This document shows, piece by piece, positions 1-17,985 of a DNA stretch of 18,451 nucleotides. Numbering within the stretch: the first letter of the stretch is position 1; each line of letters begins with the position of its first letter. The notes beneath the pieces were generated by a model. That model made no database searches, was not told the DNA's origin, and saw only the letters and a program-made list of their open reading frames with translations. Source of the DNA: a virus (lineage: Duplodnaviria; Heunggongvirae; Uroviricota; Caudoviricetes); the IMG/VR virus record IMGVR_UViG_2695420855_000005, positions 1-18,451 of that record; one strand, written 5' to 3'. Made by a program: the position numbers and the translations under genes.

Positions 1-57
1 CCTTCCAACCGAGTTGACGAACTCCTGCCATGGAACGTAGTACTCACTAATAAATAA

Positions 58-441
58 GCGTCAATACGGTGCTCCGTTGACGCTTACAAATATGCGGTTG
101 CCGATCGTGAACCGATCACTATTCACACCGAAGATGCTGCTCGATTTGGTATTGCGAATGGCGATCTGGTGCGTGTCTGGAACAAACGTGGTCAGATTTT
201 GACAGGCGCGGTGGTGACTGACGGGATCAAAAAAGGCGTGGTATGCGTGCATGAAGGTGCATGGCCAGATCTGGAAAACGGCTTGTGTAAAAACGGCAGT
301 GCGAACGTGTTAACGGCGGATATCCCCAGCTCGCAGCTGGCAAATGCCTGTGCCGGTAACTCTGCGCTGGTGTATATCGAAAAATATACGGGTAACGCAC
401 CGAAGTTAACGGCATTTGATAAGCCTGCTGTTCAGGCGTAA
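58..441 (+). CDS. torZ: C-terminal fragment of a molybdopterin (DMSO-reductase family) oxidoreductase, TorZ/BisZ-like; upstream frame closed by stops in all three frames at nt 38-57
   Basis: Translation ...[56 protein letters not shown]... fits the conserved C-terminal molybdopterin-binding domain; convergent with cmoB across REP elements as in the K-12 torZ-cmoB arrangement (recalled, not searched). TAG 38-40, TAA 48-50, TAA 55-57. Confidence 0.6.
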
Positions 442-450
442 GAAGTGAAT

Positions 451-470
451 AGCGCCCGGAAACGGGCGCT
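451..470 (+). terminator. GC-rich hairpin just after torZ stop (agcgcccg-gaaa-cgggcgct), no clear U-tract
   Basis: Perfect 8-bp inverted repeat with 4-nt loop, 10 nt after the TAA at 439-441. Confidence 0.35.
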
Positions 471-492
471 GAGGTTATGCAAACGTAAAACT

Positions 493-591
493 GCCTGATG
501 CGCTATGCTTATCAGGCCTACATAGTCCCTGCAATAGATTGAATTAGCAAGAGTTTGTAGGCCGGATAAGGCATTCAAGCCGCATCCGGCA
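493..591. repeat. Pair of REP (repetitive extragenic palindrome) elements, BIME-like, between convergent torZ and cmoB
   Basis: gcctgatgcgctatgcttatcaggcctaca (493-522) and tgtaggccggataaggcattcaagccgcatccggca (556-591) match the enterobacterial REP consensus family. Confidence 0.6.
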
Positions 592-605
592 GTAATGCCA
601 GACCT

Positions 606-2753
<2,148 letters not shown>

Positions 2754-2805
2754 ACAAACTCCCTTTAAAATGGCCGATGGCACCTGTCTATGATAGGTGG
2801 CAAAT

Positions 2806-3621
2806 TCAGAAAAGAGAAGATTGCTGTGGAATAGCCGGAACTGCTCCGATCTCTGGAAGCGTTTTACGTAAGTCTTCCCACAGGGTATGTACCAGTTCCG
2901 GGGCCTGGGCAATGTCTGGCGTATGTAAAAAAAGATAAGGCGTAGTGGTCTGATGCCACTGCGCTAATTTCTGTAACCAGACCTGAAATAATTCCCGGTT
3001 TTGCGTCATATCATCACTACCGATAAAACGGATCAGCGGATTTGTCGCCGTCAGTACAGCATGTACTGGAACTTTAGGTTTTTTTCGTTGAGCGTCGCGA
3101 ATAGCTTCACTGTGTGGACATGCTGCATGAACCGGGCGGCTGTCTAAAATCACCCGATTAACGCCGCGCTGATGTAAACCGCGATTAAGCGTTTGTTCCT
3201 CTTCCCCTTTGGCGAAAAACTGTGGATGGCGGACTTCCACACCATAATTAAATTCGCCAGGGAGAGAATCGAGAAAATGCCAAAGCGCAGGCAGCTCCCG
3301 TGGGCCGAATGTGGCAGGCAGTTGCAGCCAGTATTGCCCAATGCGCGGAGCCAACGGTGACATGCGGGTCAAAAATTCAGTCACTAAATCATCGCAATGT
3401 CGTAATGCTGCCTGATGCGAAATGGTCGCCGGAAACTTAAAACAGAAGCGGAAGTCATCTGTGGTCTGTTCACGCCAGCGCAGGACAACCTCGGGTTTCG
3501 GCAGGGCGTAAAGCGTGGTGTTGCCCTCCACGCAGTTAATGTGACGGCAACTACCATTAAAATAACTGATATTTAAAGATATTATTTCAGAGTCTGGCTC
3601 TATGGGGCATGTATGGGACAC
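2806..3621 (-). CDS. yecE: DUF72-family protein YecE; 5' ~80 nt appear prophage-derived (hybrid ORF with GTG start), so the N-terminus is probably non-native
   Basis: From ...NCVEGNTTLYALPKPEVVLRWREQTTDDFRFCFKFPATISHQAAL... onward it reads as YecE; first ~27 codons (MSHTCPIEPDSEIISLNISYFNGSCRH) overlap the integrase 3' end and lack the usual DUF72 N-terminal motif (from memory). Confidence 0.75.
   Translation of the reverse strand: MSHTCPIEPDSEIISLNISYFNGSCRHINCVEGNTTLYALPKPEVVLRWREQTTDDFRFCFKFPATISHQAALRHCDDLVTEFLTRMSPLAPRIGQYWLQLPATFGPRELPALWHFLDSLPGEFNYGVEVRHPQFFAKGEEEQTLNRGLHQRGVNRVILDSRPVHAACPHSEAIRDAQRKKPKVPVHAVLTATNPLIRFIGSDDMTQNRELFQVWLQKLAQWHQTTTPYLFLHTPDIAQAPELVHTLWEDLRKTLPEIGAVPAIPQQSSLF
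3535..3590. other. Approximate attL (prophage-host junction): AT-rich stretch at the overlap of the int 3' end and the yecE 5' end
   Basis: Inferred from where yecE-like coding sequence begins and from the int stop at 3587-3589; exact core not determinable without attR or an empty-site sequence. Confidence 0.4.
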
Positions 3622-4873
3622 TCTCTGTCAACTGCTTATTGAGTAGTTCTATTTGCCCGATATTGTTATCTTCCATCCATGCACCGTAAACGTTGAATAC
3701 CATTTGTGCATTTGCATGGCCCATTTGGTTTGCTATGAAGCTTGGATTCGCTCCTGCCGATAATGCCCAGCAGGCATAAGTATGCCTAGACTGATAGGCT
3801 TTTCTGTGCCGCAGTCCTGCTCGCCTTAATGCAGATGCCCAGGAATCTCTGATGGAATCTGCTTTATAGTGGTGGCCGACTTGCTGGCATTTTTTCACCA
3901 GTTGCGGATTAAAAACAAACGTGCATTCATGGCTTGTGCTGCGTCCGAACTCCCGCAGTTTGACATCAATTTGATATTGCTGGTCAAACCTTGTCATTTC
4001 AGCCTGGCTTTTCAGGGCATCAACAGCTGGTTGAACAAGATGAATAACACGATCAGTTCCCGCCTCTGTTTTTGGTAGAGTGAACTCCCCGAGTTTTGTA
4101 TAATTACGACGGATAGTCATTGTTTTAGCTTTTAAATCAATATCCTCCCAGGCGAGAGCTATTAGCTCACCGTGACGAATGCCTGTGTATACTGCTAAGG
4201 ACCACAGGTTTTTCGTTTGTTGATGGTGACAGGCATCAATAAAGCGAATAAATTCGTCACGCGTGAGCGGATCTGGCTCTGTTCTTGATCTCTTTAATGG
4301 TGTCAGCCCGTTAAATGGGTTTGACCCGATATAGCCGTTATCAGCAGCAAATTGAAACATTCCTGCAATTGTCGTCATGTAGTAATTAACCGTAACTACC
4401 GATCTCCCTTTAACCGGCGTTGTTTTTCCATTAGAGAGATTATGATACCCGGTTAACAAATCTTTCCTGATAAACAGTAAATCTTCCTTTGTTACAGACG
4501 AAGCAAGACGTTTTTCCCCTATGCGAGGAAGCATGTTTCTCACCACGGATTGATACCGACTGAATGCATTGCTTCCTATCTCTATTTTCTTAAGGTCCAG
4601 CCATTTTTCCGAAAGTGCCTTAACTGTTATCTCTCTTTTCCCCAGGCCAAAGTGTTTCAGGTTAGGGGAATTAGGGAACTGCGCGGCGTAGTCGAAACTC
4701 CCCATTCTGATTGCAAAACAAACGGAAGTGCGAAGTTCACCTGCGATCTTCCGGTTTTTGGCGGTGTCAGGAACACCGAGGTTTTCTCTGACACGTTTGC
4801 CATTATAGTGAAACCATATGCGGAGTGATCCGCCATGGTTTTCAACGCCTGTCGGGTATGATGCGTTACTCAT
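3587..4873 (-). CDS. int: Phage tyrosine integrase (site-specific recombinase)
   Basis: 428 aa; C-terminal catalytic region ...LRHRKAYQSRHTYACWALSAGANPSFIANQMGHANAQMVFNVYGAWM... consistent with the R-H-R-Y tyrosine-recombinase signature; strong RBS GGGAGG before the ATG. Confidence 0.92.
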   Translation of the reverse strand: MSNASYPTGVENHGGSLRIWFHYNGKRVRENLGVPDTAKNRKIAGELRTSVCFAIRMGSFDYAAQFPNSPNLKHFGLGKREITVKALSEKWLDLKKIEIGSNAFSRYQSVVRNMLPRIGEKRLASSVTKEDLLFIRKDLLTGYHNLSNGKTTPVKGRSVVTVNYYMTTIAGMFQFAADNGYIGSNPFNGLTPLKRSRTEPDPLTRDEFIRFIDACHHQQTKNLWSLAVYTGIRHGELIALAWEDIDLKAKTMTIRRNYTKLGEFTLPKTEAGTDRVIHLVQPAVDALKSQAEMTRFDQQYQIDVKLREFGRSTSHECTFVFNPQLVKKCQQVGHHYKADSIRDSWASALRRAGLRHRKAYQSRHTYACWALSAGANPSFIANQMGHANAQMVFNVYGAWMEDNNIGQIELLNKQLTESVPYMPHRARL

Positions 4874-4906
4874 TAAACCTCCCAGACGTCCAGGAGCATT
4901 AACAGG

Positions 4907-5161
4907 TTAACCGGAACTTGCATTTTTGGCACCTGGTTGTTTCTGGTTTTCGATCCATCGCATAATTTCTTCGATGTTGTACAGGCATTCACTGTAGTGC
5001 CCCGGATCACCTTCTACAGCGTAATGGCGGTATTCTTTTCCCTGCATCCATGACTTTCTTCTTGCCCGCTCAATGGTGCCAGGCTTTAGCCCTGTTGATG
5101 CAATGAGGACTCTCTCCGTACACCATTTGCTGGGGGTTATCTGATAGATGATTGTCTGCAT
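4907..5161 (-). CDS. xis: Excisionase-like small DNA-binding protein
   Basis: 84 aa basic protein directly upstream of int on the same strand; GAGG RBS; sequence resembles winged-helix excisionase-like proteins. Confidence 0.7.
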   Translation of the reverse strand: MQTIIYQITPSKWCTERVLIASTGLKPGTIERARRKSWMQGKEYRHYAVEGDPGHYSECLYNIEEIMRWIENQKQPGAKNASSG

Positions 5162-5164
5162 GCC

Positions 5165-5314
5165 AACCTCATAAAATTTTCATCCACGGCAGTGGCACCA
5201 CACGTCAAACATTCGTTTCACAACTTCACGGCAGTAGAAACCGTCAACATCTCGCGTCAGGTCATAGCGATTGCCGTAACGCTGGCGTACCAATAGCTCA
5301 AACGCTTTATTCAT
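5165..5314 (-). CDS. Hypothetical small protein (49 aa, MNKAFELLVRQRYGNRYDLTRDVDGFYCREVVKRMFDVWCHCRG)
   Basis: Not in the supplied track (<60 aa); ATG preceded by AAGGAAG RBS; fills the gap between the neighbouring ORFs on the same strand. Confidence 0.4.
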
Positions 5315-5317
5315 TCT

Positions 5318-5560
5318 TTACTTCCTTTTCATGGCACGTAATTTTTTCAGATGAGCTTCTTGTTCTGTTTCTGCCAGAATTTGTCGGTATTCCTGGTGAT
5401 CGATCCGTTCAAACGATTCATTAAAATCGTTCATTTTTACCGATTGTGTTTGCCCGTCCATTCTTCTGTACAACACGGTGTTGTTTATGCAGCGAACAAT
5501 TTTTACCGGGTAACCGGCACTGTCGGTATACAGTTGTCCCTGATTAATCAGAGCGAACAT
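5318..5560 (-). CDS. Hypothetical phage protein (about 80 aa from the internal ATG with CAGGAG RBS)
   Basis: ORF MFALINQGQLYTDSAGYPVKIVRCINNTVLYRRMDGQTQSVKMNDFNESFERIDHQEYRQILAETEQEAHLKKLRAMKRK; packed in the leftward operon. Confidence 0.5.
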   Translation of the reverse strand: MFALINQGQLYTDSAGYPVKIVRCINNTVLYRRMDGQTQSVKMNDFNESFERIDHQEYRQILAETEQEAHLKKLRAMKRK

Positions 5561-5591
5561 TTTTTCTCCTGCTCTCTGAATAGTGAGAACT

Positions 5592-5975
5592 TCAGAGCCG
5601 TATGTTTGTAGCGGGTTCAATGCTGATAATTTCTGCTGAGATAAGCATCCCGGCAAGCCAGAGCTCTCCGGACAGGTCTTCATCCTGGCATATCAGTTCG
5701 CCAATATTAATGGTGGCCATGATATCCGTTTCCCCTGTGCGCTCATCCAGGACTTCTTCATAAGGCAGCGTTGCGTGCAGACTTTCAATAGCGCAATTGA
5801 TAACATCTAGTCCGGTCAGATTGCCGCCGACAGTAACTTCGAATGTTTCGCGGTATTCCCATAGTCCGAAAGTTAATCGAACGGTTTGTTTTGCCATGCG
5901 TCCGCACGACGTCAGATTCGGGTCATAGTTCATTATTTGCGGTTGAGCATTCTGGTTGTTCATCTGATTTTCCAT
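5592..5975 (-). CDS. Hypothetical protein (about 127 aa; start uncertain, several in-frame ATGs without a strong RBS)
   Basis: Long ORF immediately downstream of the SPFH lipoprotein gene on the same strand; no recognisable motif. Confidence 0.5.
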   Translation of the reverse strand: MENQMNNQNAQPQIMNYDPNLTSCGRMAKQTVRLTFGLWEYRETFEVTVGGNLTGLDVINCAIESLHATLPYEEVLDERTGETDIMATINIGELICQDEDLSGELWLAGMLISAEIISIEPATNIRL

Positions 5976-6003
5976 TAACCCGGCGGTTTGCCGGGCGTGT
6001 AAG

Positions 6004-6831
6004 TTATTTAATCTGGATAAATGGTGTATTGGCACCACTGGTCATGTATTGCGGCAGTGTACCGTTCCACTTGTTGATGGCTTCCAGCTCCATGACGCTA
6101 GGGTTCTGGCGCAGAGCTTCGCCGCGTAAACGAATGGCATCGGCTTCTGCTTGGGCTTTTGTTCGAATGGCATCAGCCTGTCCGGCAGCTTCTGCACGCA
6201 GCATGTTGGCCTCCGCTTCACGTTGCTTGACTTCCTGTTCGCGCTGCAGGGTTTTCTGGTTTGCCGTGACTTTGGCGTTAATGCTGTCGATAACGGTTGG
6301 CGGGTATTCCGGTTTACCTACATAAGAGAGGCTCATTACCTGAATGCCGATGGGTGTCATCTCTTCCTGAATGTCTTTAAGTGCGGCATCCAGTAGTTCA
6401 GACTTGCCGCCGTCGATAAATTTGTCGGTGGTCATTTTGCTGGCCAGTCGATTGAGTGCGTCGGCGATCTTCTGGCGCAGGTCAGTGTCGGTAATGTCAT
6501 CCACGCCTTTGCGGTAGGTCTGAAACACCGTGGTAACTTTGGATGGATCAACTTTGTAGGCAACACCGATGTGATAGCCGATGGTTGTGCCGTCACTCAT
6601 CTGGAAGCTGAATGGCTCATCGTAGGTCTTCATTTGTTTGAAGGTTGGGAAGATGTAAACTTCAGTATTCCAGCCAGTCCAGTAGCGACCAACACCGACC
6701 ACCTCACCGACGCCTTTATCGTCGCCCAGTTTATTTACTTTGATGCCAACATTACCGGGTTCAACGCGATCGCAACCGACAAGGCCAATGGTCGGCAGAA
6801 CAATGGCTAAAGCAAAAATAATTTTTTTCAT
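6004..6831 (-). CDS. SPFH/band-7 (prohibitin/HflC-like) domain lipoprotein; lipobox LVGC with Asp at +2 suggests inner-membrane retention
   Basis: MKKIIFALAIVLPTIGLVGCD signal/lipobox; SPFH core then Ala/Glu/Gln-rich coiled coil ...QREQEVKQREAEANMLRAEAAGQADAIRTKAQAEADAIRLRGEALRQNP... typical of the band-7 C-terminus. Confidence 0.85.
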   Translation of the reverse strand: MKKIIFALAIVLPTIGLVGCDRVEPGNVGIKVNKLGDDKGVGEVVGVGRYWTGWNTEVYIFPTFKQMKTYDEPFSFQMSDGTTIGYHIGVAYKVDPSKVTTVFQTYRKGVDDITDTDLRQKIADALNRLASKMTTDKFIDGGKSELLDAALKDIQEEMTPIGIQVMSLSYVGKPEYPPTVIDSINAKVTANQKTLQREQEVKQREAEANMLRAEAAGQADAIRTKAQAEADAIRLRGEALRQNPSVMELEAINKWNGTLPQYMTSGANTPFIQIK

Positions 6832-7016
6832 TTTTTATCCTTAGTGAAAGAAAGACCCTTGTAAATGGCATAAATGCAGGGCGGGGTCAGAAACGCCAGT
6901 GCAAAGCCAGAAATAACTGCTCTCGTATCCTTCATGGATATAAGGAACGGAACGAGTAATCCGTAAATGCATGCGATAATTGCCAGTAAAATTACTATTG
7001 TGAAATACAGTCTCAT
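6828..7016 (-). CDS. Small two-helix membrane protein (62 aa), translationally coupled (ATGA overlap) to the SPFH lipoprotein gene
   Basis: MRLYFTIVILLAIIACIYGLLVPFLISMKDTRAVISGFALAFLTPPCIYAIYKGLSFTKDKK, two hydrophobic segments; weak RBS. Confidence 0.55.
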   Translation of the reverse strand: MRLYFTIVILLAIIACIYGLLVPFLISMKDTRAVISGFALAFLTPPCIYAIYKGLSFTKDKK

Positions 7017-7161
7017 TGGTATGTGGTATCCCGATATTTTTAACTGACAGACAGCGCAATAAAGAGAATAATGATTTCTGTTAGTGTCAGTACTGTGGCA
7101 AGGATTAAAAGCAGTTTTACTCTGCTTAATTCACGGTTGCTTTTCATATAAACGGTTAGTA

Positions 7162-7190
7162 AAAAACGGAAGAGTTATATTCTTCTTAAT
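7162..7190 (-). terminator. Weak intrinsic-terminator candidate downstream of the 190-aa gene (minus strand GAAGA-atataac-TCTTC followed by cgTTTTTT)
   Basis: 5-bp stem, 7-nt loop and T6 run read on the minus strand just after the stop at 7201-7203. Confidence 0.3.
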
Positions 7191-7200
7191 ATTTAATGTG

Positions 7201-7773
7201 TCACTGGCCTTCTGGCATACCATGAGTATTCAGGTCGTTAATTATTTCATCCAGAAGGAGTTCAAGCCCTTCTCGACCTATATCTGAAAGAATGAAACCT
7301 TTATCAGGGGAAGTGGTGAGCATTTTCTGATAAAGAAACAGCGCTCTTCCCATTCCCTCAGCTTCGCCATATGTTTGAATTAAATTCCATTCAATATACT
7401 GCTGTAAGGTAAACCGAATGGGACCTGGGTATATAGTCATAACTCCATGCTTCCCGTTATATATTACGGCGCGATCTGTTGTTCCGTGTTCATTCGGGAC
7501 ATCAATTGTGCCGTTCTTGTCTTCTTCTTCGTTGATGAATGTTGTCACGTACAGCCATCGCCACTGGACTATTTTCATCTCAACAGGGAGTTTTCCCAGT
7601 AATCCTGCATTGTCGGCTTGCGCGAGGCATTGAAGGATTTGCAAACCTTTCACATTAGGATGATCGAATTCACCGGCATCCAGACGGCGGATTGCGTCGT
7701 GATAATCAATAGTCATACTGCCAGTTCGTATACCTGTGGCTGTTGCTTCAGCCTGGAATTCAGCGTATTGCAT
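7201..7773 (-). CDS. Hypothetical protein, 190 aa, no recognisable family
   Basis: ATG preceded by GAGGAG; the upstream gene's stop overlaps this RBS (coupled); moderately acidic, no TM segments. Confidence 0.7.
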   Translation of the reverse strand: MQYAEFQAEATATGIRTGSMTIDYHDAIRRLDAGEFDHPNVKGLQILQCLAQADNAGLLGKLPVEMKIVQWRWLYVTTFINEEEDKNGTIDVPNEHGTTDRAVIYNGKHGVMTIYPGPIRFTLQQYIEWNLIQTYGEAEGMGRALFLYQKMLTTSPDKGFILSDIGREGLELLLDEIINDLNTHGMPEGQ

Positions 7774-7778
7774 GATAT

Positions 7779-7961
7779 TTACTCCTCATCTTCATCTGCT
7801 GGTGCAATAACGTCATATCCTGCCTTTTCTGCAATAAACAGGAATGTTGAAAGACTTCCTACAAGTTCATCGTCATGAACATGACGAATTAATATTACTT
7901 TCCCGTTTTTGATGGTCAGCAATACTCTGGTTTGCTCGTGTTCTGCTGTTTTCTGATGCAT
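7779..7961 (-). CDS. Hypothetical small protein, 60 aa, acidic C-terminus (…APADEDEE)
   Basis: GGGAGA RBS 5 nt before the ATG; first gene of a two-gene cassette with the 190-aa ORF. Confidence 0.55.
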   Translation of the reverse strand: MHQKTAEHEQTRVLLTIKNGKVILIRHVHDDELVGSLSTFLFIAEKAGYDVIAPADEDEE

Positions 7962-8086
7962 TATTATCTCCCATATGCTTTACGCAGAAACAAGCAGGCA
8001 ATATGCATGTAATTTTTCCCGTGCTGTGCAATAAGGCAGGCTGTTTTGTGTGATGCCTTATGTTTTATAAAGGTCATATAAAACCT

Positions 8087-8116
8087 CCTGTGGATTAAGG
8101 GTGTGATAATCCCAGG
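8087..8116. promoter_or_regulatory. Inverted repeat (cctgTGGATTA-n9-TAATCCcagg) in the 200-bp gap upstream of the 60-aa/190-aa cassette; candidate operator
   Basis: Perfect 7-bp arms tggatta/taatcca separated by 9 nt, with partially complementary flanks. Confidence 0.35.
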
Positions 8117-8158
8117 CGATTAAGCCGTAATATATTATCCGGAGATGACTTGTTCTAT

Positions 8159-8359
8159 TTAACTGGTTAGTTCTTTTTCAGCAGCTGCTTCAGCATAGCA
8201 ACGTGCGAATTCAAGAACTTCATCACCTGTTCTTTTTATTGCGTCGTTGTCTGACATTTGTAATACAACAACTGCGCATAATAAATTATGGATATTGTTT
8301 GCAAAGGAATCCGGTGCCAGGCATAAGCCTTCATACTTATCATGGATATTGCCAGTCAT
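8159..8359 (-). CDS. Small protein (66 aa from the ATG with AAGGAG RBS) paralogous to the N-terminal domain of the upstream tandem-HTH protein
   Basis: ...LAPDSFANNIHNLLCAVVVLQMSDNDAIKRTGDEVLEFARCYAEAAAE... aligns with ...LDLDSFALTIANLLSAVRTFNLLDDTRLKEVGFDVLEFTHEYALAIA... of the neighbouring gene; ATGA start/stop overlap. Confidence 0.6.
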   Translation of the reverse strand: MTGNIHDKYEGLCLAPDSFANNIHNLLCAVVVLQMSDNDAIKRTGDEVLEFARCYAEAAAEKELTS

Positions 8360-9057
8360 TGTTGCTGCTCCTTTGCTTCTGATTTTCCCGTTAACAACCA
8401 CATCAGGTCACAATTAAGTGCACTGGCCAGTGGTACTATCTGAGCAGCTGGAACTTCATGGATGCCGCATTCCCAGTCGTTTATGGGGTCACTATAGGTA
8501 TGAATCATGCGGGCAAGATCAGATTCGGTTAATCCCAGTTTTGTACGGGCGCTTTTGATGCGTGCGCCAATACTTTCCACATGGACTTCAGGCGCATTTA
8601 CGCGAATAACTGACTCGCTGTTTTTTTCACTCAGCAGAGAAAGCGGATCGCATCCCAGGACGTTTGCCAGGGGGATAAGCATGCTGATGGTTGGTTCGTA
8701 CTCTCCACTCTCCCATTGCAGGATAATCTCTTCGTCAAGATCGAGTAGTCTGGCCAGTTCGGTAGTCGTCAAGCCGCAGGCTTCACGTTTGGTGCGTATG
8801 CAGGCTATCTTGTTGCCTGAGCGAATAGAATGTTGTTGTTTTGTCGATGCGATCGCTAAAGCATATTCATGAGTAAATTCCAGCACATCAAACCCAACCT
8901 CTTTTAATCGCGTATCATCCAGGAGGTTGAAGGTGCGAACAGCACTGAGCAGGTTTGCGATGGTTAATGCAAAAGAATCGAGGTCTAATTCATCACATAA
9001 AACCTTGTTGTAAGTATTGAGGCTACATGTTTTTGGTGTTGTTTGTAAGGCTTCCAT
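8356..9057 (-). CDS. DNA-binding protein with an N-terminal domain of unknown function followed by two tandem XRE-type helix-turn-helix domains; first gene of the leftward early operon (alternative TTG start at 9093)
   Basis: Two HTH_XRE-like segments (...LTTTELARLLDLDEEIILQWESGEYEPTISMLIPLANVLGCDPLSLL... and ...LTESDLARMIHTYSDPINDWECGIHEVPAAQIVPLASALNCDLMWLL...); ATG at 9057 has a GGTGAT RBS. Confidence 0.75.
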   Translation of the reverse strand: MEALQTTPKTCSLNTYNKVLCDELDLDSFALTIANLLSAVRTFNLLDDTRLKEVGFDVLEFTHEYALAIASTKQQHSIRSGNKIACIRTKREACGLTTTELARLLDLDEEIILQWESGEYEPTISMLIPLANVLGCDPLSLLSEKNSESVIRVNAPEVHVESIGARIKSARTKLGLTESDLARMIHTYSDPINDWECGIHEVPAAQIVPLASALNCDLMWLLTGKSEAKEQQQ

Positions 9058-9111
9058 ATCATCACCATGCAATTCTAAGTTGAAGTTAATCAATATATAA
9101 TTGATGGTGAG

Positions 9112-9140
9112 ATATTATGTATCAGGGAAACTAGTGTCAA
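9112..9140 (-). promoter_or_regulatory. Leftward sigma70 promoter (PL-like): -35 TTGACA, 17-nt spacer, -10 TAATAT on the minus strand
   Basis: Minus strand reads TTGACActagtttccctgatacaTAATAT; sits between cI and the first leftward gene, flanked by TTGAT repeats. Confidence 0.55.
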
Positions 9141-9203
9141 TCAAAAATTGATAAACTTGATTTTTTGTAGTGAGTGACAAATAATTTAATTTAAAATCAA
9201 CAA

Positions 9204-9893
9204 CTAACCAAATCTGTTGATATTGAATGGTACAGATGAGATGACTTTTGACTGGATATACAGCAGCGCCATTCCCTCTTTTTCGATGCTCCACGGCTGA
9301 TAGTTGGGATTGTCTGATAAGACCATGATCTTGCTTCCAATTTTTTGAAGTCGTTTGACGTAACATTCGCCATCAAAGCAAAATGCATAAATGCCATCAC
9401 CGTCAAAATAAGTTACTGTTTTATCTAAAAACAGTAAGTCACCTGGGGCGATTGTTGGGGCCATGCTGTCCCCTCTGGCGTTACCGATTTCTATGTTCTT
9501 GAATGCTCTGTTACCGACCAGGCGGCGGGCATATTCAGGATCAAGTTCTATTGAGCGTACTACATCAATTAGATCTCCCCGTACATGAGTTCCGTCGCCG
9601 CAGCTGAATTCAACATCCAGCACATTGAACACAACGCTGTCTTCTCTTGTATGGTGTTTTTCAGCTGAAGAGTGTGTCGATGAGGTATCTTCACCCAAAA
9701 ACCAGGATTGTGGATAACCACTAATTACTGATAGCTGTGCAAGTTTATCGCTTCTGGGAAACGTCTTTCCTGTAGTCCAGTATTGTACTGATTGCGCGCT
9801 TACACCCAGCTTACGGGCTAGTTCAGCCTGACTCCAGCCTTTCGTTTTCAGCATCATTGCTATCCGATTTTCTGTGCTTTTTACATTCTTCAT
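9204..9893 (-). CDS. cI: Prophage CI-type repressor (N-terminal HTH_XRE + C-terminal LexA/S24 peptidase-like autocleavage domain)
   Basis: HTH ...WSQAELARKLGVSAQSVQYWTTG...; S24 region ...GDSMAPTIAPGDLLFLD...YVKRL... (Ser/Lys dyad); AGGA RBS before the ATG at 9891-9893; divergent from the cro-like gene. Confidence 0.9.
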   Translation of the reverse strand: MKNVKSTENRIAMMLKTKGWSQAELARKLGVSAQSVQYWTTGKTFPRSDKLAQLSVISGYPQSWFLGEDTSSTHSSAEKHHTREDSVVFNVLDVEFSCGDGTHVRGDLIDVVRSIELDPEYARRLVGNRAFKNIEIGNARGDSMAPTIAPGDLLFLDKTVTYFDGDGIYAFCFDGECYVKRLQKIGSKIMVLSDNPNYQPWSIEKEGMALLYIQSKVISSVPFNINRFG

Positions 9894-10025
9894 GGTGAGT
9901 TCCTGTCGAGGCTTTATACACATAAATATTAACTTGATTTTAGTGTATTCGATCCTTTTGAAACTTGCATGTTAATTTATTCTTGATATATTCTTGATTT
10001 GTAAAGTTAATATTGGAGCTGCGCT
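9894..10025. promoter_or_regulatory. Immunity-region intergenic (OR-like): divergent promoters and repeated CTTGAT motifs that are candidate operator half-sites
   Basis: AT-rich 132 bp between divergent cI and cro; CTTGAT three times (aaCTTGATttta, ttCTTGATatat, ttCTTGATttgt); possible rightward promoter TTGATA-n18-TAATAT. Confidence 0.5.
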
Positions 10026-10283
10026 GTGATAAAACTGAATGATTACGACATGTTGCGTAAATTGATCCCTCAAAACGCCATAGCGAGATACATCGGTGTT
10101 ACGCCACAAGCGGTGAACCTGTGGTTTTCTAAAAACTCCGTTCCTTCCCGTTTTGTTTTACGGGTGTGTGAATTGGTTGAATGGAAGGTTACTCCGCATG
10201 GGTTAAGACCTGATCTATACCCTTATCCCGAAGATGGAATTCCTGATTCGTTACGAAAATCAAACGGTATTACCAGAGATTAA
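10026..10283 (+). CDS. cro: Cro/YdaS-like small HTH regulator (GTG start; alternative ATG at 10050)
   Basis: 85 aa; HTH ...NAIARYIGVTPQAVNLWFSKNSVP...; GGAG RBS; divergent from cI. Confidence 0.75.
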   Translation: MIKLNDYDMLRKLIPQNAIARYIGVTPQAVNLWFSKNSVPSRFVLRVCELVEWKVTPHGLRPDLYPYPEDGIPDSLRKSNGITRD

Positions 10284-10364
10284 AGACTGACTGTCACGAG
10301 CAGTAACTCACGATGCATACGTTTTGGCGTGAGTTCTGAAATGTCATTCTCAAGGAGCAATCAG

Positions 10365-11072
10365 ATGAATACCGCAATTTTTACCGATAAAGCATCCATG
10401 ACCAGCGTTGAGATCGCAGAGCTGGTGGGTAAGCGTCATGACAATGTAAAACGCACTATTGAAACATTAGCCAAAGGTGGTGTTGTCCGGTCTCCTCAAA
10501 TTGAGGTTTCCGAAAGAATCAATAACTTAGGGTTTAAAGTTCAACACGAGCATTATCTGTTTGAAGGCGAACAAGGTAAGCGCGACAGTATCATTGTTGT
10601 CGCGCAGCTTTGCCCTGAATTCACCGCTCGCCTGGTAGACCGCTGGCGCGAACTGGAAGAACAAATCCGCAAACCAATGAGCCAGATCGAAATGGTTGCT
10701 GCAATGGCGCTTGAAGCTGTTCGCCAACAAAGACGTCTTGAGCAGGTGGAAGAGAAAGTCACCCACGTTACTGAAACTGTCGAACAAATCAAAAGAGGCG
10801 CCATACGCGATGGTTATGCAGGCTATCGTCAGCTGGCGGCGAAAACGGGTATGTCAGATGCGAAATGCCGCAATCTGGTGAACGCATATCAGATCCCTAC
10901 CGACACTCATGAATTTATGACGCCGGACGGATTGTTGTCGCGTCGTGCAATTGTTGCTGTAGAACCCTTCATGTCTGCTTTTCATCGCATGATGAGTGAA
11001 GCAGAACCACGAGGTACTCGCTGGTATCACCCGAAAATGGGGTTGTTCCAGGCGCTGGGCTGGCAGGTGTAA
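10365..11072 (+). CDS. Rha-family phage regulatory protein (antirepressor-like), 235 aa from the ATG with AAGGAG RBS
   Basis: N-terminal ...TSVEIAELVGKRHDNVKRTIETL... matches the Rha (Phage_pRha) domain as recalled. Confidence 0.8.
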   Translation: MNTAIFTDKASMTSVEIAELVGKRHDNVKRTIETLAKGGVVRSPQIEVSERINNLGFKVQHEHYLFEGEQGKRDSIIVVAQLCPEFTARLVDRWRELEEQIRKPMSQIEMVAAMALEAVRQQRRLEQVEEKVTHVTETVEQIKRGAIRDGYAGYRQLAAKTGMSDAKCRNLVNAYQIPTDTHEFMTPDGLLSRRAIVAVEPFMSAFHRMMSEAEPRGTRWYHPKMGLFQALGWQV

Positions 11073-11091
11073 TTATGCTCACAGGTAACAC

Positions 11092-11265
11092 ATGCAAGTA
11101 CTCAATCGCTGGTTCCGTGATGGAAGGGGGCGTCGCGTCCACGTTATACGCTGGGAGTCTGAAACACAGCGGGTTATTTACCTGCGTGATGGTTATCCGC
11201 ATGAATGCTTCAGCCCGCTGTGGTTGTTTCGTCGTGATTTTGTTGAGTGCGAAGCACCAGCATAA
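11092..11265 (+). CDS. Hypothetical small basic protein (57 aa, MQVLNRWFRDGRGRRVHVIRWESETQRVIYLRDGYPHECFSPLWLFRRDFVECEAPA)
   Basis: Not in the supplied track (<60 aa); same frame as the downstream FinO-like gene; weak RBS. Confidence 0.35.
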   Translation: MQVLNRWFRDGRGRRVHVIRWESETQRVIYLRDGYPHECFSPLWLFRRDFVECEAPA

Positions 11266-11328
11266 GCTTGAACTGCTTGAAAAACCTGGATATATCATTC
11301 TGATATCTAGAGTAATGGAGAATGGTAT

Positions 11329-11721
11329 ATGGGAAGAAAAGCAAGGCATCTTGCAAATAAAGAAATCATTAAAGTATTGGCTGAACGCTATCCAGAAAGC
11401 TTCTTTGTTATTCCATACAAAGTTGTTCCGCTTGTTCACGATATCGTTCATGAGCTTTTTGCCGATCTCGGACATATACCTAAGGAATATAAAAACAGCC
11501 TTCGAAGAGCCATCTATCAGTACAAAAGCTCCGCTGCATACCTTCAGTCAGTCGCGTTTGGAGAATATCGCCGCAATCTGGCTGGAAATCGTATTGTCAG
11601 AACTTCCGTATCTGAGCGCGAAGAAGCCAGAGCACAACTCAAAGAACGTGGTGTCTGGACTCGTCGTATGGAGCTCTTGTTCAAAGTTAATATGGGTAGA
11701 AAAGAAGCGTCTAATCGCTGA
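11329..11721 (+). CDS. FinO/ProQ-domain RNA-binding protein (RNA chaperone family), 130 aa
   Basis: ...KEIIKVLAERYPESFFVIPYKVVPLVHDIVHELFADL...LRRAIYQYKSSAAYLQSVAFGEYRRNLAGNRIVRTSVSEREEARAQLKE... aligns by eye with the E. coli ProQ N-terminal FinO domain (...KEVIAFLAERFPHCF...[49 protein letters not shown]...) from memory; GGAG RBS. Confidence 0.75.
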   Translation: MGRKARHLANKEIIKVLAERYPESFFVIPYKVVPLVHDIVHELFADLGHIPKEYKNSLRRAIYQYKSSAAYLQSVAFGEYRRNLAGNRIVRTSVSEREEARAQLKERGVWTRRMELLFKVNMGRKEASNR

Positions 11722-12013
11722 ATTTTATCAAAACATTGATTCCTCAATTTCGGGACGTTACACTGTTCAGGCACCTTATAAAGCGGGTGTCGGGATTGGC
11801 GTCCTGGAATTCAATATAGAGCATAACCGCGCTCATGCGGTCTTTTCGTATCATGAGCATTGCTACGTCCAAATTATGGTGGGGCGTGCAGGGGCATCGC
11901 AAGATGCGCCGGGTTCTATGTTGACCGGTTACGCCAACCCTGTACGTCTCACCACCTCTGTGATTGGCGTCCCATGTGGTGAGTTCTTTGAATTCAACAT
12001 AGGGGCTGTCACC

Positions 12014-12577
12014 ATGACTACTTTCCCAACTCTCTCTCAACCTGAAATTGCCATCGTTGATGGTCAGGCTGTTACATCTTCTTTGGCTGTTGCTGACTTC
12101 TTCTCTAAACGTCATGACGATGTTCTGAAAAAGATCCGCATTTTGGATTGTTCTCCAGAGTTTTGTGCCCGCAATTTTGCGGAGACATCAATTTTGGTAC
12201 GCCAGCCCAACGGCGGTACTCGCAAACTTCCCTGCTATCAAATCACCCGCGACGGCTTCGCATTCCTTGCTATGGGCTTCACTGGCAAGCGTGCCGCCCG
12301 GTTCAAAGAGGCATACATCAATGCCTTTAACCAGATGGAGAGGAGCTTATCAGGAGCTGGTGCGGCTGAGATGTCATCTGTCGCACAAAACGCCAGAGGC
12401 GTATACCTGCATTTGCGTGAAATCCATCAAATCTGGAGAAGCCAGCTTTATCCCATGCTTAAGGCTGTTGAATCTCCGCTGGCTGGCAAACTGTACGACC
12501 GTGTAGGTGATGCAGTTTTTGGTGCTGCACTTGTTGATTCCAGGCTGAATGGTTCTGACAAGGAGGTGCACCCATGA
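12014..12577 (+). CDS. Second Rha-family phage regulatory protein (188 aa); N-terminal extent uncertain because the frame stays open upstream
   Basis: ...QAVTSSLAVADFFSKRHDDVLKKIRIL... Rha-type motif; ATG preceded by AGGGG. Confidence 0.7.
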   Translation: MTTFPTLSQPEIAIVDGQAVTSSLAVADFFSKRHDDVLKKIRILDCSPEFCARNFAETSILVRQPNGGTRKLPCYQITRDGFAFLAMGFTGKRAARFKEAYINAFNQMERSLSGAGAAEMSSVAQNARGVYLHLREIHQIWRSQLYPMLKAVESPLAGKLYDRVGDAVFGAALVDSRLNGSDKEVHP

Positions 12578-16473: not shown

Positions 16474-17493
16474 ATGCATTCAATATCGTTTGCTGAGGTG
16501 ACCGTGAGAGCACTGCTGACCCCTGAAATTGCCCCGCGTATGGGGATCGTATTGTTCAGACCCGGTTCAGAGCTGATGCCCCTGTTTATGCAGGGGCGTG
16601 TCCTGCTGGAGCCTGAGCCGGAACGTTATTCATCTTTCGCCAGCGGTGCCGTTCCGGCAGCATCACAACCGCTGGCGGATGATCCTGCCGTTCGGGCCGT
16701 GTTCCGCAATGAGGCAGTTATTTGTTGTACTGGTGGGGTGGAATGTCTTGAAAGCTGGTTACTTCGTGAAAAGGGCTGTCAGTGGCCTCATTCCGGATGG
16801 CACAGCGAGAACATGACCACAATGCGGCACGCGCCGGGTGCAATCCGTCTGTGCTGGCACTGTGACAATCTTCTCCGTGACCAGTTCACGGAACGGCTGG
16901 AAGCAATGGCAACGGATAACTGTGCCCGCTGGGTGTTATTTGTTGTGCGCCGTGATCTTGGTTTTGATGACAGTCACGTTGTGACAATGCCGGAACTGTG
17001 CTGGTGGCTGATTCGTAATGACCTGGCGGATGCCTTACCGGAAAGTGCAGCCCGTAAGGCACTGAGATTACCGAAGCCTGTTGTGCCGTCTGTCACCCGG
17101 GAAAGTGACCTTGTGCCTTCGGTTACTGCCACCAGCATCATCCAGGATAAGGCGAAAAAGGTGCTGGCGCTGAAAGTGGATCCGGAGTCGCCGGAGTCTT
17201 TTATGTTACGCCCAAAACGTCGTCGCTGGGTTAATGAAAAGTACACGCGCTGGGTTAAGACGCAGCCGTGTGCATGTTGTGGTAAGCCAGCCGACGATCC
17301 TCATCACCTGATTGGTCATGGTCAGGGTGGAATGGGTACAAAAGCGCATGACCTTTTTGTGTTGCCTTTGTGCAGAAAACACCATGACGAACTGCATGCG
17401 GATACCGTGGCATTTGAAGAGAAGTATGGTTCCCAACTGGAGCTGATATTTCGTTTTATCGATCGCGCGCTGGCGATTGGTGTGCTGTCCTGA
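16474..17493 (+). CDS. DUF968-like phage protein with C-terminal Cys/His (HNH-like zinc-binding) motif (alternative GTG start at 16504)
   Basis: C-terminal ...CACCGKPADDPHHLIGHGQGGMGTKAHDLFVLPLCRKHHDELH... resembles the HNH/zinc-finger signature of lambdoid nin-region proteins. Confidence 0.7.
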   Translation: MHSISFAEVTVRALLTPEIAPRMGIVLFRPGSELMPLFMQGRVLLEPEPERYSSFASGAVPAASQPLADDPAVRAVFRNEAVICCTGGVECLESWLLREKGCQWPHSGWHSENMTTMRHAPGAIRLCWHCDNLLRDQFTERLEAMATDNCARWVLFVVRRDLGFDDSHVVTMPELCWWLIRNDLADALPESAARKALRLPKPVVPSVTRESDLVPSVTATSIIQDKAKKVLALKVDPESPESFMLRPKRRRWVNEKYTRWVKTQPCACCGKPADDPHHLIGHGQGGMGTKAHDLFVLPLCRKHHDELHADTVAFEEKYGSQLELIFRFIDRALAIGVLS

Positions 17494-17510
17494 TTTTGTG
17501 GAGAAAGTTG

Positions 17511-17891
17511 ATGCGTGATATTCAGATGGTTCTTGAACGCTGGGGGGCATGGGCTGCAAGTGGTAACACCGGGGTGGACTATTCTCCGATCGCTGCCGGA
17601 TTCAAAGGACTTTTACCATCTGCCACTAAACCACGTCCGGCCTGCTGCGATGATGACGGACTTATCATTGAAAACTGTCTTGCTCGTCTGAAGCAGAAAA
17701 AACCTGAGGAGTATTCGCTTCTCATTGCTCATTATTTGTTGCGAATATCAAAAAGACAGATAGCCAGGACGAGAAAGAAAAGCGAAAAAGCAATACGAAT
17801 TGAGATGCAGATAGCCGAAGGGTTTATTGACGGATGTTTGTCTGTGCTGGGGGTAAGACTGGAGATGGACGACTGGCTGCTAAAAAAGTAA
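17511..17891 (+). CDS. Q: Late-gene antiterminator Q (phage 82/21-type family)
   Basis: MRDIQMVLERWGAWAASGN...PACCDDDGLIIENCLARLKQ... resembles Q-family antiterminators (from memory); followed by a strong intrinsic terminator; GGAG RBS. Confidence 0.8.
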   Translation: MRDIQMVLERWGAWAASGNTGVDYSPIAAGFKGLLPSATKPRPACCDDDGLIIENCLARLKQKKPEEYSLLIAHYLLRISKRQIARTRKKSEKAIRIEMQIAEGFIDGCLSVLGVRLEMDDWLLKK

Positions 17892-17960
17892 AAAATGATT
17901 AGTGCGGTCCGCAAAAAGTATGTCAGTATGTTAAGAGTGGTTACTTCGCCACACAGCTTA

Positions 17961-17985
17961 AACCCGCCGCGAGCGGGTTTTTTTA
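17961..17985 (+). terminator. Intrinsic terminator, tR'-like (cccgc-cgcga-gcggg + T7)
   Basis: GC-rich 5-6 bp stem followed by TTTTTTT about 70 nt after the Q stop. Confidence 0.7.

What the first reader, a model, noticed from the sequence alone, without database searches (positions are those of the whole stretch)
4907..9093. Early-left region lacks recognisable N, Red/RecET, kil or cIII functions
Between xis and cI every ORF is either of unknown function or a membrane/regulatory type. I could not recognise an N-like antiterminator, exonuclease, annealing protein or Gam. The region is also more AT-rich than the host flank. It looks like a replaced accessory region, which is where prophage-borne defence or exclusion systems cluster.
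Basis: inference. Interest (0 to 1): 0.45.

Follow-up and report, generated by a model that had tools for sequence, protein, structure and literature searches.

The report
N-less early-left operon, phiP27-type prophage
The stretch is the leftward early operon of a well-known, already sequenced type of E. coli prophage (phiP27-like, long-tailed Shiga-toxin-phage type) that really does lack lambda's N, Red, Kil and cIII genes, but it holds no recognisable defence system and is ordinary for this phage family.

Summary
None of the 10 annotated ORFs between xis and cI, nor 45 further mechanical ORFs, matches an N, exonuclease, annealase, Gam, Kil or cIII family. The same Pfam search recognises Exo, Bet, Gam, Kil and N (cIII was not in the control) in phage JLK-2012, which shares this int-xis module. 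No boxA site or Arg-rich ORF exists. AlphaFold models of the two largest unknowns resemble no solved structure. GC is 44.8% against 50.3% in the host flank.

The region is about 97% identical to published long-tailed Stx2 phages of STEC. That group includes the reference phage for the "Eru7" replication-region type, and half of the region is shared with phiP27 (2002). A complete 45.9-kb relative has none of these genes annotated anywhere, so their absence is a lineage trait. Relatives show three alternative early-left layouts on the same int-xis-DUF4222 module. Only a roughly 1.6-kb cassette (DUF5406, SPFH lipoprotein, small membrane proteins) is swapped within this lineage. PADLOC finds no defence system.

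The most interesting residue is the SPFH lipoprotein with its overlapping small membrane-protein gene. This uncharacterised pair also occurs in N4, P1-like, P2-like, Burkholderia, Pseudomonas and Caulobacter phages. Verdict: already known, low interest.

The parts
3587..4873 (-). Tyrosine integrase. It overlaps the 3' end of the interrupted host gene yecE (DUF72).
   Evidence: RefSeq annotation of the 97.3%-identical locus in CP015244. IntR is annotated in the LC5678xx phages.
4907..5161 (-). Excisionase (DUF1233 family).
   Evidence: Pfam PF06806 at 2e-29; phrog_539 excisionase at 1.6e-37.
5180..5314 (-). 44-aa protein of unknown function. It belongs to the conserved int-xis module.
   Evidence: phrog_3871 at 6e-32. 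Conserved at 84-98% in phiP27, CP015244, Stx1_14040 and Stx2_EH2246; only a 17-aa C-terminal match in Stx2_12E129_yecE. JLK-2012 annotates a CDS of the same size at the same position.
5318..5560 (-). DUF4222 protein (80 aa). The mosaic junction lies at its start codon.
   Evidence: Pfam PF13973 at 2e-15. In the alignment the window and phiP27 diverge from JLK-2012 and Stx1_14040 immediately upstream of the ATG.
5592..5963 (-). DUF5406 protein (123 aa), part of the swappable cassette. Its fold has no known relative.
6004..6831 (-). SPFH/Band-7 lipoprotein (275 aa). Its signal peptide ends in the lipobox LVGC followed by Asp at +2, so it is predicted to be anchored in the inner membrane facing the periplasm.
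   Evidence: Pfam PF01145 at 6e-31; phrog_200 'lipoprotein' at 1e-114. Weak matches to HflK and HflC, far below the NCBIfam cut-offs. Lipobox read directly from the translation. Homologues occur in 752 phage records.
6828..7016 (-). 62-aa hydrophobic protein, probably with two transmembrane helices. Its stop overlaps the SPFH start, and it is the conserved partner of the SPFH gene.
   Evidence: phrog_1130 'membrane protein' at 1e-22. Homologous small genes overlap the SPFH start in N4 (gp19), P88, RCS47, phi1026b (gp49), Hali and Ccr5.
7040..7147 (-). Candidate 35-aa hydrophobic ORF with no clear Shine-Dalgarno sequence. It travels with the SPFH cassette.
   Evidence: Reading frame kept at 88-97% aa identity in phiP27, CP015244 and Stx2_12E129; absent where the cassette is replaced. 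No family match.
7201..7773 (-). 190-aa protein of unknown function, found only in Escherichia. It is a core gene of this type of pL operon.
7779..7961 (-). 60-aa acidic protein of unknown function.
   Evidence: phrog_340 at 6e-22; weak matches to the C-terminal parts of anti-repressor PHROGs.
7964..8077 (-). 37-aa basic ORF with an AGGAGG Shine-Dalgarno sequence, abutting the next gene. It is not annotated in RefSeq.
   Evidence: Sequence. 81% aa identity in phiP27, where the neighbouring 60-aa protein is only 51% identical. Annotated in LC567819. No family match.
8159..8359 (-). 66-aa protein, a paralogue of the N-terminal domain of the upstream regulator.
   Evidence: BLASTP 48% identity over 44 aa, E 4e-9. 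phrog_4587 and phrog_4836 cross-match both proteins.
8356..9057 (-). First gene of the leftward operon. It is a regulator of about 233 aa with an N-terminal domain and two XRE-type HTH domains. It sits where lambda has N.
   Evidence: Pfam HTH_3 matched twice, 8e-17; phrog_4836 'CII-like regulator' at 6e-92. Closest solved domains are the 434 and P22 repressor HTH. ATG at 9057 read.
9089..9152 (-). pL-like promoter (-35 at 9140, -10 ending at 9112) bracketed by two 17-bp palindromes of the form ATCAAT-N5-ATTGAT.
   Evidence: Best minus-strand promoter match, 10 of 12. Palindromes with 0 and 1 mismatch here; weaker copies at 9922-9938 and 9971-9987 between cI and cro.
9204..9893 (-). CI-type repressor (HTH plus S24 self-cleaving peptidase).
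   Evidence: Pfam Peptidase_S24 at 5e-17 and HTH_3; phrog_4.
10050..10283 (+). Cro-like regulator (YdaS-type HTH).
   Evidence: Pfam PF15943 at 2e-9; phrog_35.
17496..17891 (+). Q antiterminator, followed by a strong terminator at 17960-17980. It is the only antitermination function found in the window.
   Evidence: Pfam Phage_antitermQ at 1.6e-52; terminator scan.

Best explanation
Positions 4907-9093 are the complete leftward early (pL) operon of a phiP27-like, long-tailed Stx-phage-type (Eru7-like) prophage integrated in yecE. This lineage never carries lambda's N, Red, Gam, Kil or cIII. Its pL operon is short (about 4.2 kb) and runs pL/oL, double-HTH regulator, 66-aa paralogue of that regulator's N-terminal domain, 37-aa peptide, 60-aa protein, 190-aa protein, a swappable cassette (35-aa ORF, 62-aa membrane protein, SPFH lipoprotein, DUF5406), DUF4222, 44-aa protein, xis, int. 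Inferred mechanism: after RecA-stimulated self-cleavage of the S24-type CI, RNA polymerase reads from pL to xis and int without any antiterminator, because the operon holds no recognisable intrinsic terminator. Late genes depend on Q alone. Recombination and concatemer formation are left to the host or are dispensable. The decision circuit uses CI and Cro plus Rha-type proteins and a c4/isrK antisense-RNA module on the right arm, in place of cII and cIII. The membrane cassette is an accessory module of unknown role. Shown here: gene content, absence of the lambda functions, mosaic structure and near-identity to published phages. Inferred only: N-independent read-through and the role of each unknown protein.
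For: No N, Exo, Bet, RecT, Erf, Sak, Gam, Kil or cIII family hit in 55 ORFs. The same scan recognises Exo, Bet, Gam, Kil and N in the positive control. There is no nut-like boxA above chance and no Arg-rich ORF. The simple scan finds no minus-strand terminator between 9105 and 4907. The models of the 190-aa and DUF5406 proteins match no nuclease, annealase or Gam fold. The region is 96.7% identical over 95% of its length to Stx2 phages LC567818/830/838 and others, and 87% identical over 68% to phiP27. LC567818 is the published Eru7 reference, defined by a Rha gene next to cI (PMC8951638), and a Rha gene is present here at 10329-11072. The complete 45.9-kb relative LC567830 has no exo, bet, gam or N annotated anywhere. 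Long-tailed Stx2a phages, the group to which the closest phage-record relatives appear to belong, were lysogenised into K-12 and their induction measured (bioRxiv 10.1101/2024.03.06.583675). Lack of N, CII and CIII is already reported for another non-lambdoid Stx phage type, Eru1 (PMC8044961). Q and its terminator are present.
Against: Absence of a profile match cannot exclude a very divergent small protein, such as the 37-aa, 44-aa or 60-aa ORFs, acting like Kil or cIII. Rho-dependent terminators and RNA-based (put-like) antitermination were not tested. A 49-nt hairpin can form at the start of the pL transcript (-16.1 kcal/mol, z -3.3), and its meaning is unknown. No transcript data were examined. 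The rest of this particular prophage lies outside the window.
Confidence: 0.85

Rival explanations
1. The central cassette (62-aa membrane protein, SPFH lipoprotein, and possibly the 35-aa ORF and DUF5406) is a prophage-borne superinfection-exclusion or anti-phage system.
For: It is the only block that is swapped among close relatives. Its products are envelope proteins. The SPFH gene with its overlapping small membrane gene moves as a unit between lambdoid, P2-like, P1-like and N4-like phages. The intergenic stretch beside it is the most AT-rich gap inside the operon, at 33% GC.
Against: PADLOC gives no hit. The pair is common in strictly virulent phages such as N4, jumbo phages and Kayvirus, so it more likely serves the phage's own infection cycle. 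No convincing promoter of its own was found, so it would be silent in a lysogen. No literature in the held library assigns a function.
Confidence: 0.15
2. The lambda functions are present but too diverged for profiles. For example, the 190-aa or DUF5406 protein could be a recombination or anti-RecBCD factor, and a small basic ORF could be an N, Kil or cIII analogue.
For: Seven ORFs have no assigned function. N, Kil and cIII are small and evolve fast. The 37-aa ORF is basic, has a strong ribosome-binding site and is better conserved than its neighbours.
Confidence: 0.08
3. The region is a decayed remnant of a lambdoid early-left arm that lost N and Red by deletion in a cryptic prophage.
For: It is short and more AT-rich than its surroundings.
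Against: All ORFs are intact, tightly packed or overlapping. The same layout occurs in 64 complete E. coli genomes and 11 phage records at 96-97% identity. It also occurs in phiP27, a deposited complete phage genome. Long-tailed Stx2a phages were lysogenised into K-12 and their induction measured.
Confidence: 0.02

Closest known systems
Long-tailed Stx2 phages of STEC O145:H28 and related strains (for example Stx2_14040 LC567818, the 'Eru7' reference, and Stx2_112808 LC567830)
   Same: 96.7% nt identity over 95% of the region. Same gene order from int to cI, same yecE-type integrase, a Rha gene beside cI/cro, a DnaC-like/DnaB replication module and Q.
   Different: The window has a small extra stretch, so the phage records cover 95% and CP015244 covers 100%. 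The Rha/antirepressor block right of cro also differs: here a 500-aa Ash-Rha ORF with c4/isrK RNAs, in CP015244 a BRO-N plus Rha pair. Whether this prophage carries stx cannot be seen in the window.
Stx2e phage phiP27 (AJ298298, published 2002)
   Same: Shares the 44-aa ORF, L03-L07 (DUF4222, DUF5406, SPFH 'putative serine protease', 190-aa and 60-aa proteins) and the unannotated 62-aa, 35-aa and 37-aa ORFs, at 87% nt identity. It also lacks annotated N and Red in this arm.
   Different: phiP27 has other genes (L08-L10) where the window has the 66-aa and double-HTH genes, and a different cI.
Lambda-type early-left arm (exo-bet-gam-kil-cIII-...-N), as in phage JLK-2012
   Same: Same position between xis and cI, same leftward transcription, and the same int-xis-44aa-DUF4222 module at 94% nt identity.
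   Different: None of the lambda functions is present here. The first pL gene is a DNA-binding regulator instead of N.
Eru1-type 'non-lambdoid' Stx phages (TL-2011c; Llarena et al. 2021)
   Same: The paper reports that these phages lack homologues of N, CII and CIII and have non-O/P replication genes (PMC8044961).
   Different: They have a different replication module (SF2 helicase and Toprim primase). No comparison with their early-left arm was made here.
HflK/HflC (SPFH modulators of FtsH)
   Same: The phage lipoprotein has an SPFH domain predicted to face the periplasm from the inner membrane, as in HflK/C. HflK is the best solved-structure match by sequence.
   Different: The match is only 23-26 bits against equivalog cut-offs of 134-660. 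The protein is lipid-anchored rather than anchored by a transmembrane helix, and no contact with FtsH was tested.

Membership tests
Lambda N / nut antitermination | A small Arg-rich (ARM) protein encoded as the first pL gene, matching N families. | tested here: not met
   The first pL gene is a 233-aa double-HTH protein. No N_peptide hit in 55 ORFs, while the JLK-2012 control gives 2e-15. No in-frame Arg-rich ORF.
Lambda N / nut antitermination | boxA/boxB nut sites downstream of pL and pR. | tested here: not met
   boxA-like matches are at chance level (12 found, 13.2 expected) and none lies downstream of either promoter. No separate boxB hairpin search was run. Folding of three short minus-strand segments (9040-9110, 8070-8165, 7140-7205) showed a hairpin only at the pL leader, where no boxA is present.
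Red / RecET-type recombination module | A YqaJ/RecE-type exonuclease. | tested here: not met
   No hit; the control gives YqaJ at 7e-30.
Red / RecET-type recombination module | A single-strand annealing protein (Bet/RecT, Erf, Sak/Rad52-like). | tested here: not met
Red / RecET-type recombination module | A Gam-type RecBCD inhibitor. | tested here: not met
Lambda Kil and cIII | A match to the Lambda_Kil or cIII families. | tested here: not met
   No hit in any ORF of at least 28 aa. The control gives Kil at 2e-20; the control held no cIII gene. Functional analogues cannot be excluded.
Known anti-phage defence systems (PADLOC-DB 2.0) | At least one system-specific protein model matched. | tested here: not met
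   Only generic HTH matches (RmrA, HTH_VI, PDC-M64, capH) to the regulator. The other nine ORFs gave nothing.
phiP27-like / Eru7-type long-tailed Stx prophage | High nucleotide identity and shared gene order with reference genomes. | tested here: met
   96.7% identity over 95% to LC567818 and LC567830; 87% over 68% to phiP27.
phiP27-like / Eru7-type long-tailed Stx prophage | A Rha-family gene directly beside cI/cro (the published Eru7 criterion). | tested here: met
   Phage_pRha at 10329-11072; criterion taken from PMC8951638.
phiP27-like / Eru7-type long-tailed Stx prophage | Carries stx genes downstream of Q. | not testable with these tools
   The window ends about 560 bases after Q.
SPFH / Band-7 | A PF01145 domain above the gathering score. 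| tested here: met
   108 bits against a cut-off of 23.6.
SPFH-NfeD operon | An adjacent NfeD-family partner. | tested here: not met
   The overlapping 62-aa partner has no Pfam hit and is too short to hold an NfeD OB-fold domain.
HflK/HflC | NCBIfam equivalog score reached. | tested here: not met
   18-26 bits against cut-offs of 134-660.

The most novel reading that the evidence does not exclude
The SPFH lipoprotein and its overlapping small membrane-protein partner (6004-7016, minus strand) form a widespread, uncharacterised phage envelope module. The pair was seen in lambdoid, P2-like, P1-like, N4, Burkholderia, Pseudomonas and Caulobacter phages. It might build a periplasm-facing cage on the inner membrane, comparable to HflK/C. 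Such a cage could block DNA entry by superinfecting phages, which would supply the missing N4 exclusion system. Alternatively it could modulate FtsH, a functional stand-in for cIII.
Probability: 0.15. Interest if true: 0.55.

Novelty: already known. Interest (0 to 1): 0.2.

Why it matters
It matters little as a discovery. The layout is published in phiP27 and in dozens of Stx phage genomes, and the lack of N, CII and CIII in non-lambdoid Stx phages is already in the literature. It is still a useful reminder that many STEC prophages called "lambdoid" run their early program without N, Red or cIII. That bears on how induction, and therefore toxin output, is controlled in these strains. The uncharacterised genes conserved in this arm are the obvious candidates to test for differences in induction efficiency among long-tailed Stx2 phages. 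These are the double-HTH regulator with its truncated paralogue, the 190-aa orphan protein, and the SPFH pair.

Tried and rejected
- **Profile scans.** I scanned the 10 annotated ORFs against four HMM libraries, and 45 further mechanical ORFs against Pfam and PHROGs. No recombination, antitermination, Kil, cIII or defence family was found.
- **PDB sequence search.** The 190-aa and DUF5406 proteins gave nothing at E<=1.
- **nut sites and Arg-rich ORFs.** The boxA search and the Arg-rich ORF scan were both negative.
- **Rfam.** Nothing lies inside 4907-9093.
- **DUF5406-SPFH linkage.** I considered that the two genes form an obligate pair and rejected it. The Pseudomonas homologue sits beside xis and int without an SPFH gene.
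- **Type I toxin-antitoxin reading of the 35-aa ORF.** An antisense promoter-like site lies at 7044-7072. I did not pursue it, because the ORF has no Shine-Dalgarno sequence and no family match.
- **RNA hairpin at the start of the pL transcript.** It is more simply read as the DNA operator palindrome.
- **Literature.** The phiP27 paper of 2002 could not be retrieved. Searches for a function of phage SPFH proteins found none.


Full report
**What the window is.** Bases 1-3621 are E. coli chromosome (cmoB, cmoA, yecN, and yecE, a DUF72 gene). A prophage begins with a tyrosine integrase at 3587-4873 that overlaps the end of yecE. The closest complete genome, E. coli O91 RM7190, matches 3500-10400 at 97.3% over 100% of the length. 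In all, 64 complete E. coli genomes, mostly STEC O157, O145, O111, O26 and O91, hold at least 80% of it.

**Gene content of 4907-9093.** All genes are on the minus strand.

| Coordinates | Product |
|---|---|
| 4907-5161 | xis (DUF1233) |
| 5180-5314 | 44-aa protein |
| 5318-5560 | DUF4222 |
| 5592-5963 | DUF5406 |
| 6004-6831 | SPFH/Band-7 lipoprotein |
| 6828-7016 | 62-aa membrane protein; its stop overlaps the SPFH start |
| 7040-7147 | candidate 35-aa hydrophobic ORF |
| 7201-7773 | 190-aa protein |
| 7779-7961 | 60-aa protein |
| 7964-8077 | 37-aa basic ORF with an AGGAGG ribosome-binding site |
| 8159-8359 | 66-aa protein |
| 8356-9057 | protein of about 233 aa with two XRE-type HTH domains |

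The only strong minus-strand promoter match is TTGACA-17-TAATAT at 9140-9112. It lies between this last gene and cI (9204-9893). Two 17-bp palindromes of the form ATCAAT-N5-ATTGAT bracket it, at 9089-9105 and 9136-9152. Weaker copies lie between cI and cro. So the finding covers exactly one pL-type operon.

**Checking the observation.**
- Pfam, PHROGs, NCBIfam and PADLOC scans of the ten ORFs gave no antiterminator N, exonuclease, Bet/RecT/Erf/Sak, Gam, Kil or cIII.
- I scanned 45 further start-to-stop ORFs of at least 28 aa on both strands. They gave nothing in PHROGs and only noise (E>0.01) in Pfam.
- A negative result needs a positive control. Phage JLK-2012 carries the same int-xis-44aa-DUF4222 module at 94% nt identity, followed by a canonical arm.
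- In that control the same Pfam scan returns YqaJ 7e-30, RecT 3e-33, Gam 3e-65, Lambda_Kil 2e-20 and N_peptide 2e-15. No cIII gene was in the control, so detection of cIII was not separately validated.
- boxA-like sequences are at chance frequency and none lies downstream of pL or pR.
- The only Arg-rich stretches are short out-of-frame ORFs inside real genes.
- GC is 44.8% in the region against 50.3% in the host flank.

**Could the functions be hidden in the unknown proteins?**
- The two largest unknowns were modelled from alignments. The 190-aa protein gave pLDDT 88 and pTM 0.84. DUF5406 gave pLDDT 85.
- Foldseek against viral models gave no match at E<=0.001 for the 190-aa protein.
- Neither model resembles a nuclease, an annealase or Gam.
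- The 190-aa family has only 36 clusters in 5.8 billion proteins, and every source name shown is Escherichia.
- DUF5406 is broader. In Pseudomonas it also sits beside xis and int.

**What the region is related to.**
- It is 96.7% identical over 95% of its length to published Stx2 phages of STEC, such as LC567818, LC567830 and LC567838. It is 87% identical over 68% to Stx2e phage phiP27, genes L03-L07.
- LC567818 is the reference phage of the "Eru7" replication-region type, defined by a Rha gene next to cI (PMC8951638). A Rha gene is present here at 10329-11072.
- The complete 45.9-kb relative LC567830 has no exo, bet, gam or N annotated anywhere.
- A preprint on O145:H28 reports that long-tailed Stx2a phages were lysogenised into K-12 and their induction measured. 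The closest phage-record relatives appear to belong to that set (10.1101/2024.03.06.583675).
- Lack of N, CII and CIII has been reported for another non-lambdoid Stx phage type, Eru1 (PMC8044961).

The absence is therefore a known lineage trait of working phages, not a local loss.

**Which genes vary.** Three early-left layouts are attached to the same int-xis-44aa-DUF4222 module.

| Layout | Content after the shared module | Found in |
|---|---|---|
| A | DUF5406, SPFH, 62-aa (and 35-aa) cassette, then 190-aa, 60-aa, 37-aa, 66-aa and double-HTH genes | the window, CP015244 and the Stx2 phages; phiP27 shares it except for the double-HTH gene |
| B | DUF551, two Ead/Ea22 genes, DUF4752 and a MarR-like gene replace the cassette, followed by the same 190-aa to double-HTH block | Stx1_14040, Stx2_EH2246 |
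| C | canonical lambda arm with exo, bet, gam, kil and N | JLK-2012 |

The junction lies right at the DUF4222 start codon. "Replaced" is thus fair in the mosaic sense. Within this lineage, however, only about 1.6 kb is swappable, and layout B also lacks recombination genes.

**Defence or exclusion?** PADLOC matched only the HTH domains of the regulator, and did so generically. The one candidate is the SPFH lipoprotein. Its signal peptide ends in the lipobox LVGC with Asp at +2. By the established +2 rule this predicts retention in the inner membrane, with the SPFH domain in the periplasm. That topology is shared in E. coli with HflK/C, which are its best, though weak, matches.

Homologues occur in 752 phage records, including virulent phages. 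In N4 (gp19/gp20), P88, RCS47, phi1026b, Hali and Ccr5, a small hydrophobic gene likewise overlaps the SPFH start. In all but Ccr5 the small protein shares the motif P-x-[ML]-[IV]-[SN]. The pair is therefore a mobile two-gene module of unknown function. I found no paper assigning it one, and a 2025 preprint states that N4's exclusion system is still unidentified. Its presence in lytic phages, and the lack of a promoter of its own, argue against a lysogen-expressed defence.

**How the arm most likely works (inference).** CI has an S24 self-cleavage domain, so SOS induction should open pL. The simple scan finds no minus-strand terminator between 9105 and 4907, so no N is needed to reach xis and int. 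Q (17496-17891) with a strong terminator at 17960-17980 handles late transcription.

The first pL product is a DNA-binding double-HTH protein that PHROGs label "CII-like". The next gene encodes only its N-terminal domain (48% identity), which suggests a regulator and modulator pair. On the right arm, Rha-type proteins and an isrK/c4 antisense-RNA module probably take over decision functions that cII and cIII perform in lambda.

**Verdict.** The defence interpretation is unsupported. The structure is already published and ordinary for this phage family. The SPFH pair is the only element worth a follow-up experiment.

Noticed in passing
window 11759-12043 (+), inside the mechanical 500-aa ORF 11075-12577: Rfam places isrK (11771-11847, 54 bits) and the C4 antisense RNA (11872-11959, 80 bits), both above gathering score, exactly where Pfam finds an 'Ash' protein domain (residues 229-323). 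A Rha domain follows. Either the stretch is dual-coding, or the Ash family partly models a translated RNA gene. In either case this is a P1 immI / Gifsy-1 isrK-like antirepressor control module.
   Followed up: partly
window 6004-7016 (-); L008 (N4 gp19/gp20), L009, L010, L012, L013, L014: The SPFH lipoprotein gene and an overlapping upstream small membrane-protein gene form a conserved pair in lambdoid, P2-like, P1-like, N4, Burkholderia, Pseudomonas and Caulobacter phages. SPFH homologues occur in 752 phage records. No function has been published. Old annotations such as 'putative serine protease' look like carry-over from NfeD/SPFH naming.
   Followed up: partly
window 7964-8077 (-): A 37-aa basic ORF with an AGGAGG ribosome-binding site, not annotated in RefSeq. 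It is better conserved in phiP27 (81% aa) than the adjacent 60-aa gene (51%).
   Followed up: partly
window 7040-7147 (-) and 7044-7072 (+): A 35-aa hydrophobic ORF is conserved wherever the SPFH cassette is present. A promoter-like site lies antisense to it. This is reminiscent of a type I toxin-antitoxin layout, but the ORF has no Shine-Dalgarno sequence and no family match.
   Followed up: no
window 8159-8359 and 8356-9057 (-): The 66-aa protein is a paralogue (48% identity) of the N-terminal domain of the double-HTH regulator encoded just upstream. It may be a truncated modulator of that regulator.
   Followed up: partly
window 9089-9152, 9922-9987: 17-bp palindromes ATCAAT-N5-ATTGAT bracket the pL-like promoter, and weaker copies lie between cI and cro. 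They are likely operator sites. The palindrome at 9089-9105 lies inside a predicted RNA hairpin (-16.1 kcal/mol, z -3.3) that ends just upstream of the regulator's start codon.
   Followed up: partly
window 514-604: Rfam matches to ES036/CssrF (above gathering score) and naRNA4 (below it) in the host intergenic region upstream of cmoB.
   Followed up: no
window 16474-17493 (+): A DUF968 protein with a weak HNHc_6 nuclease-like match sits just before Q. It is the only nuclease-like gene in the window, and it is not a Red/RecE-type exonuclease.
   Followed up: no
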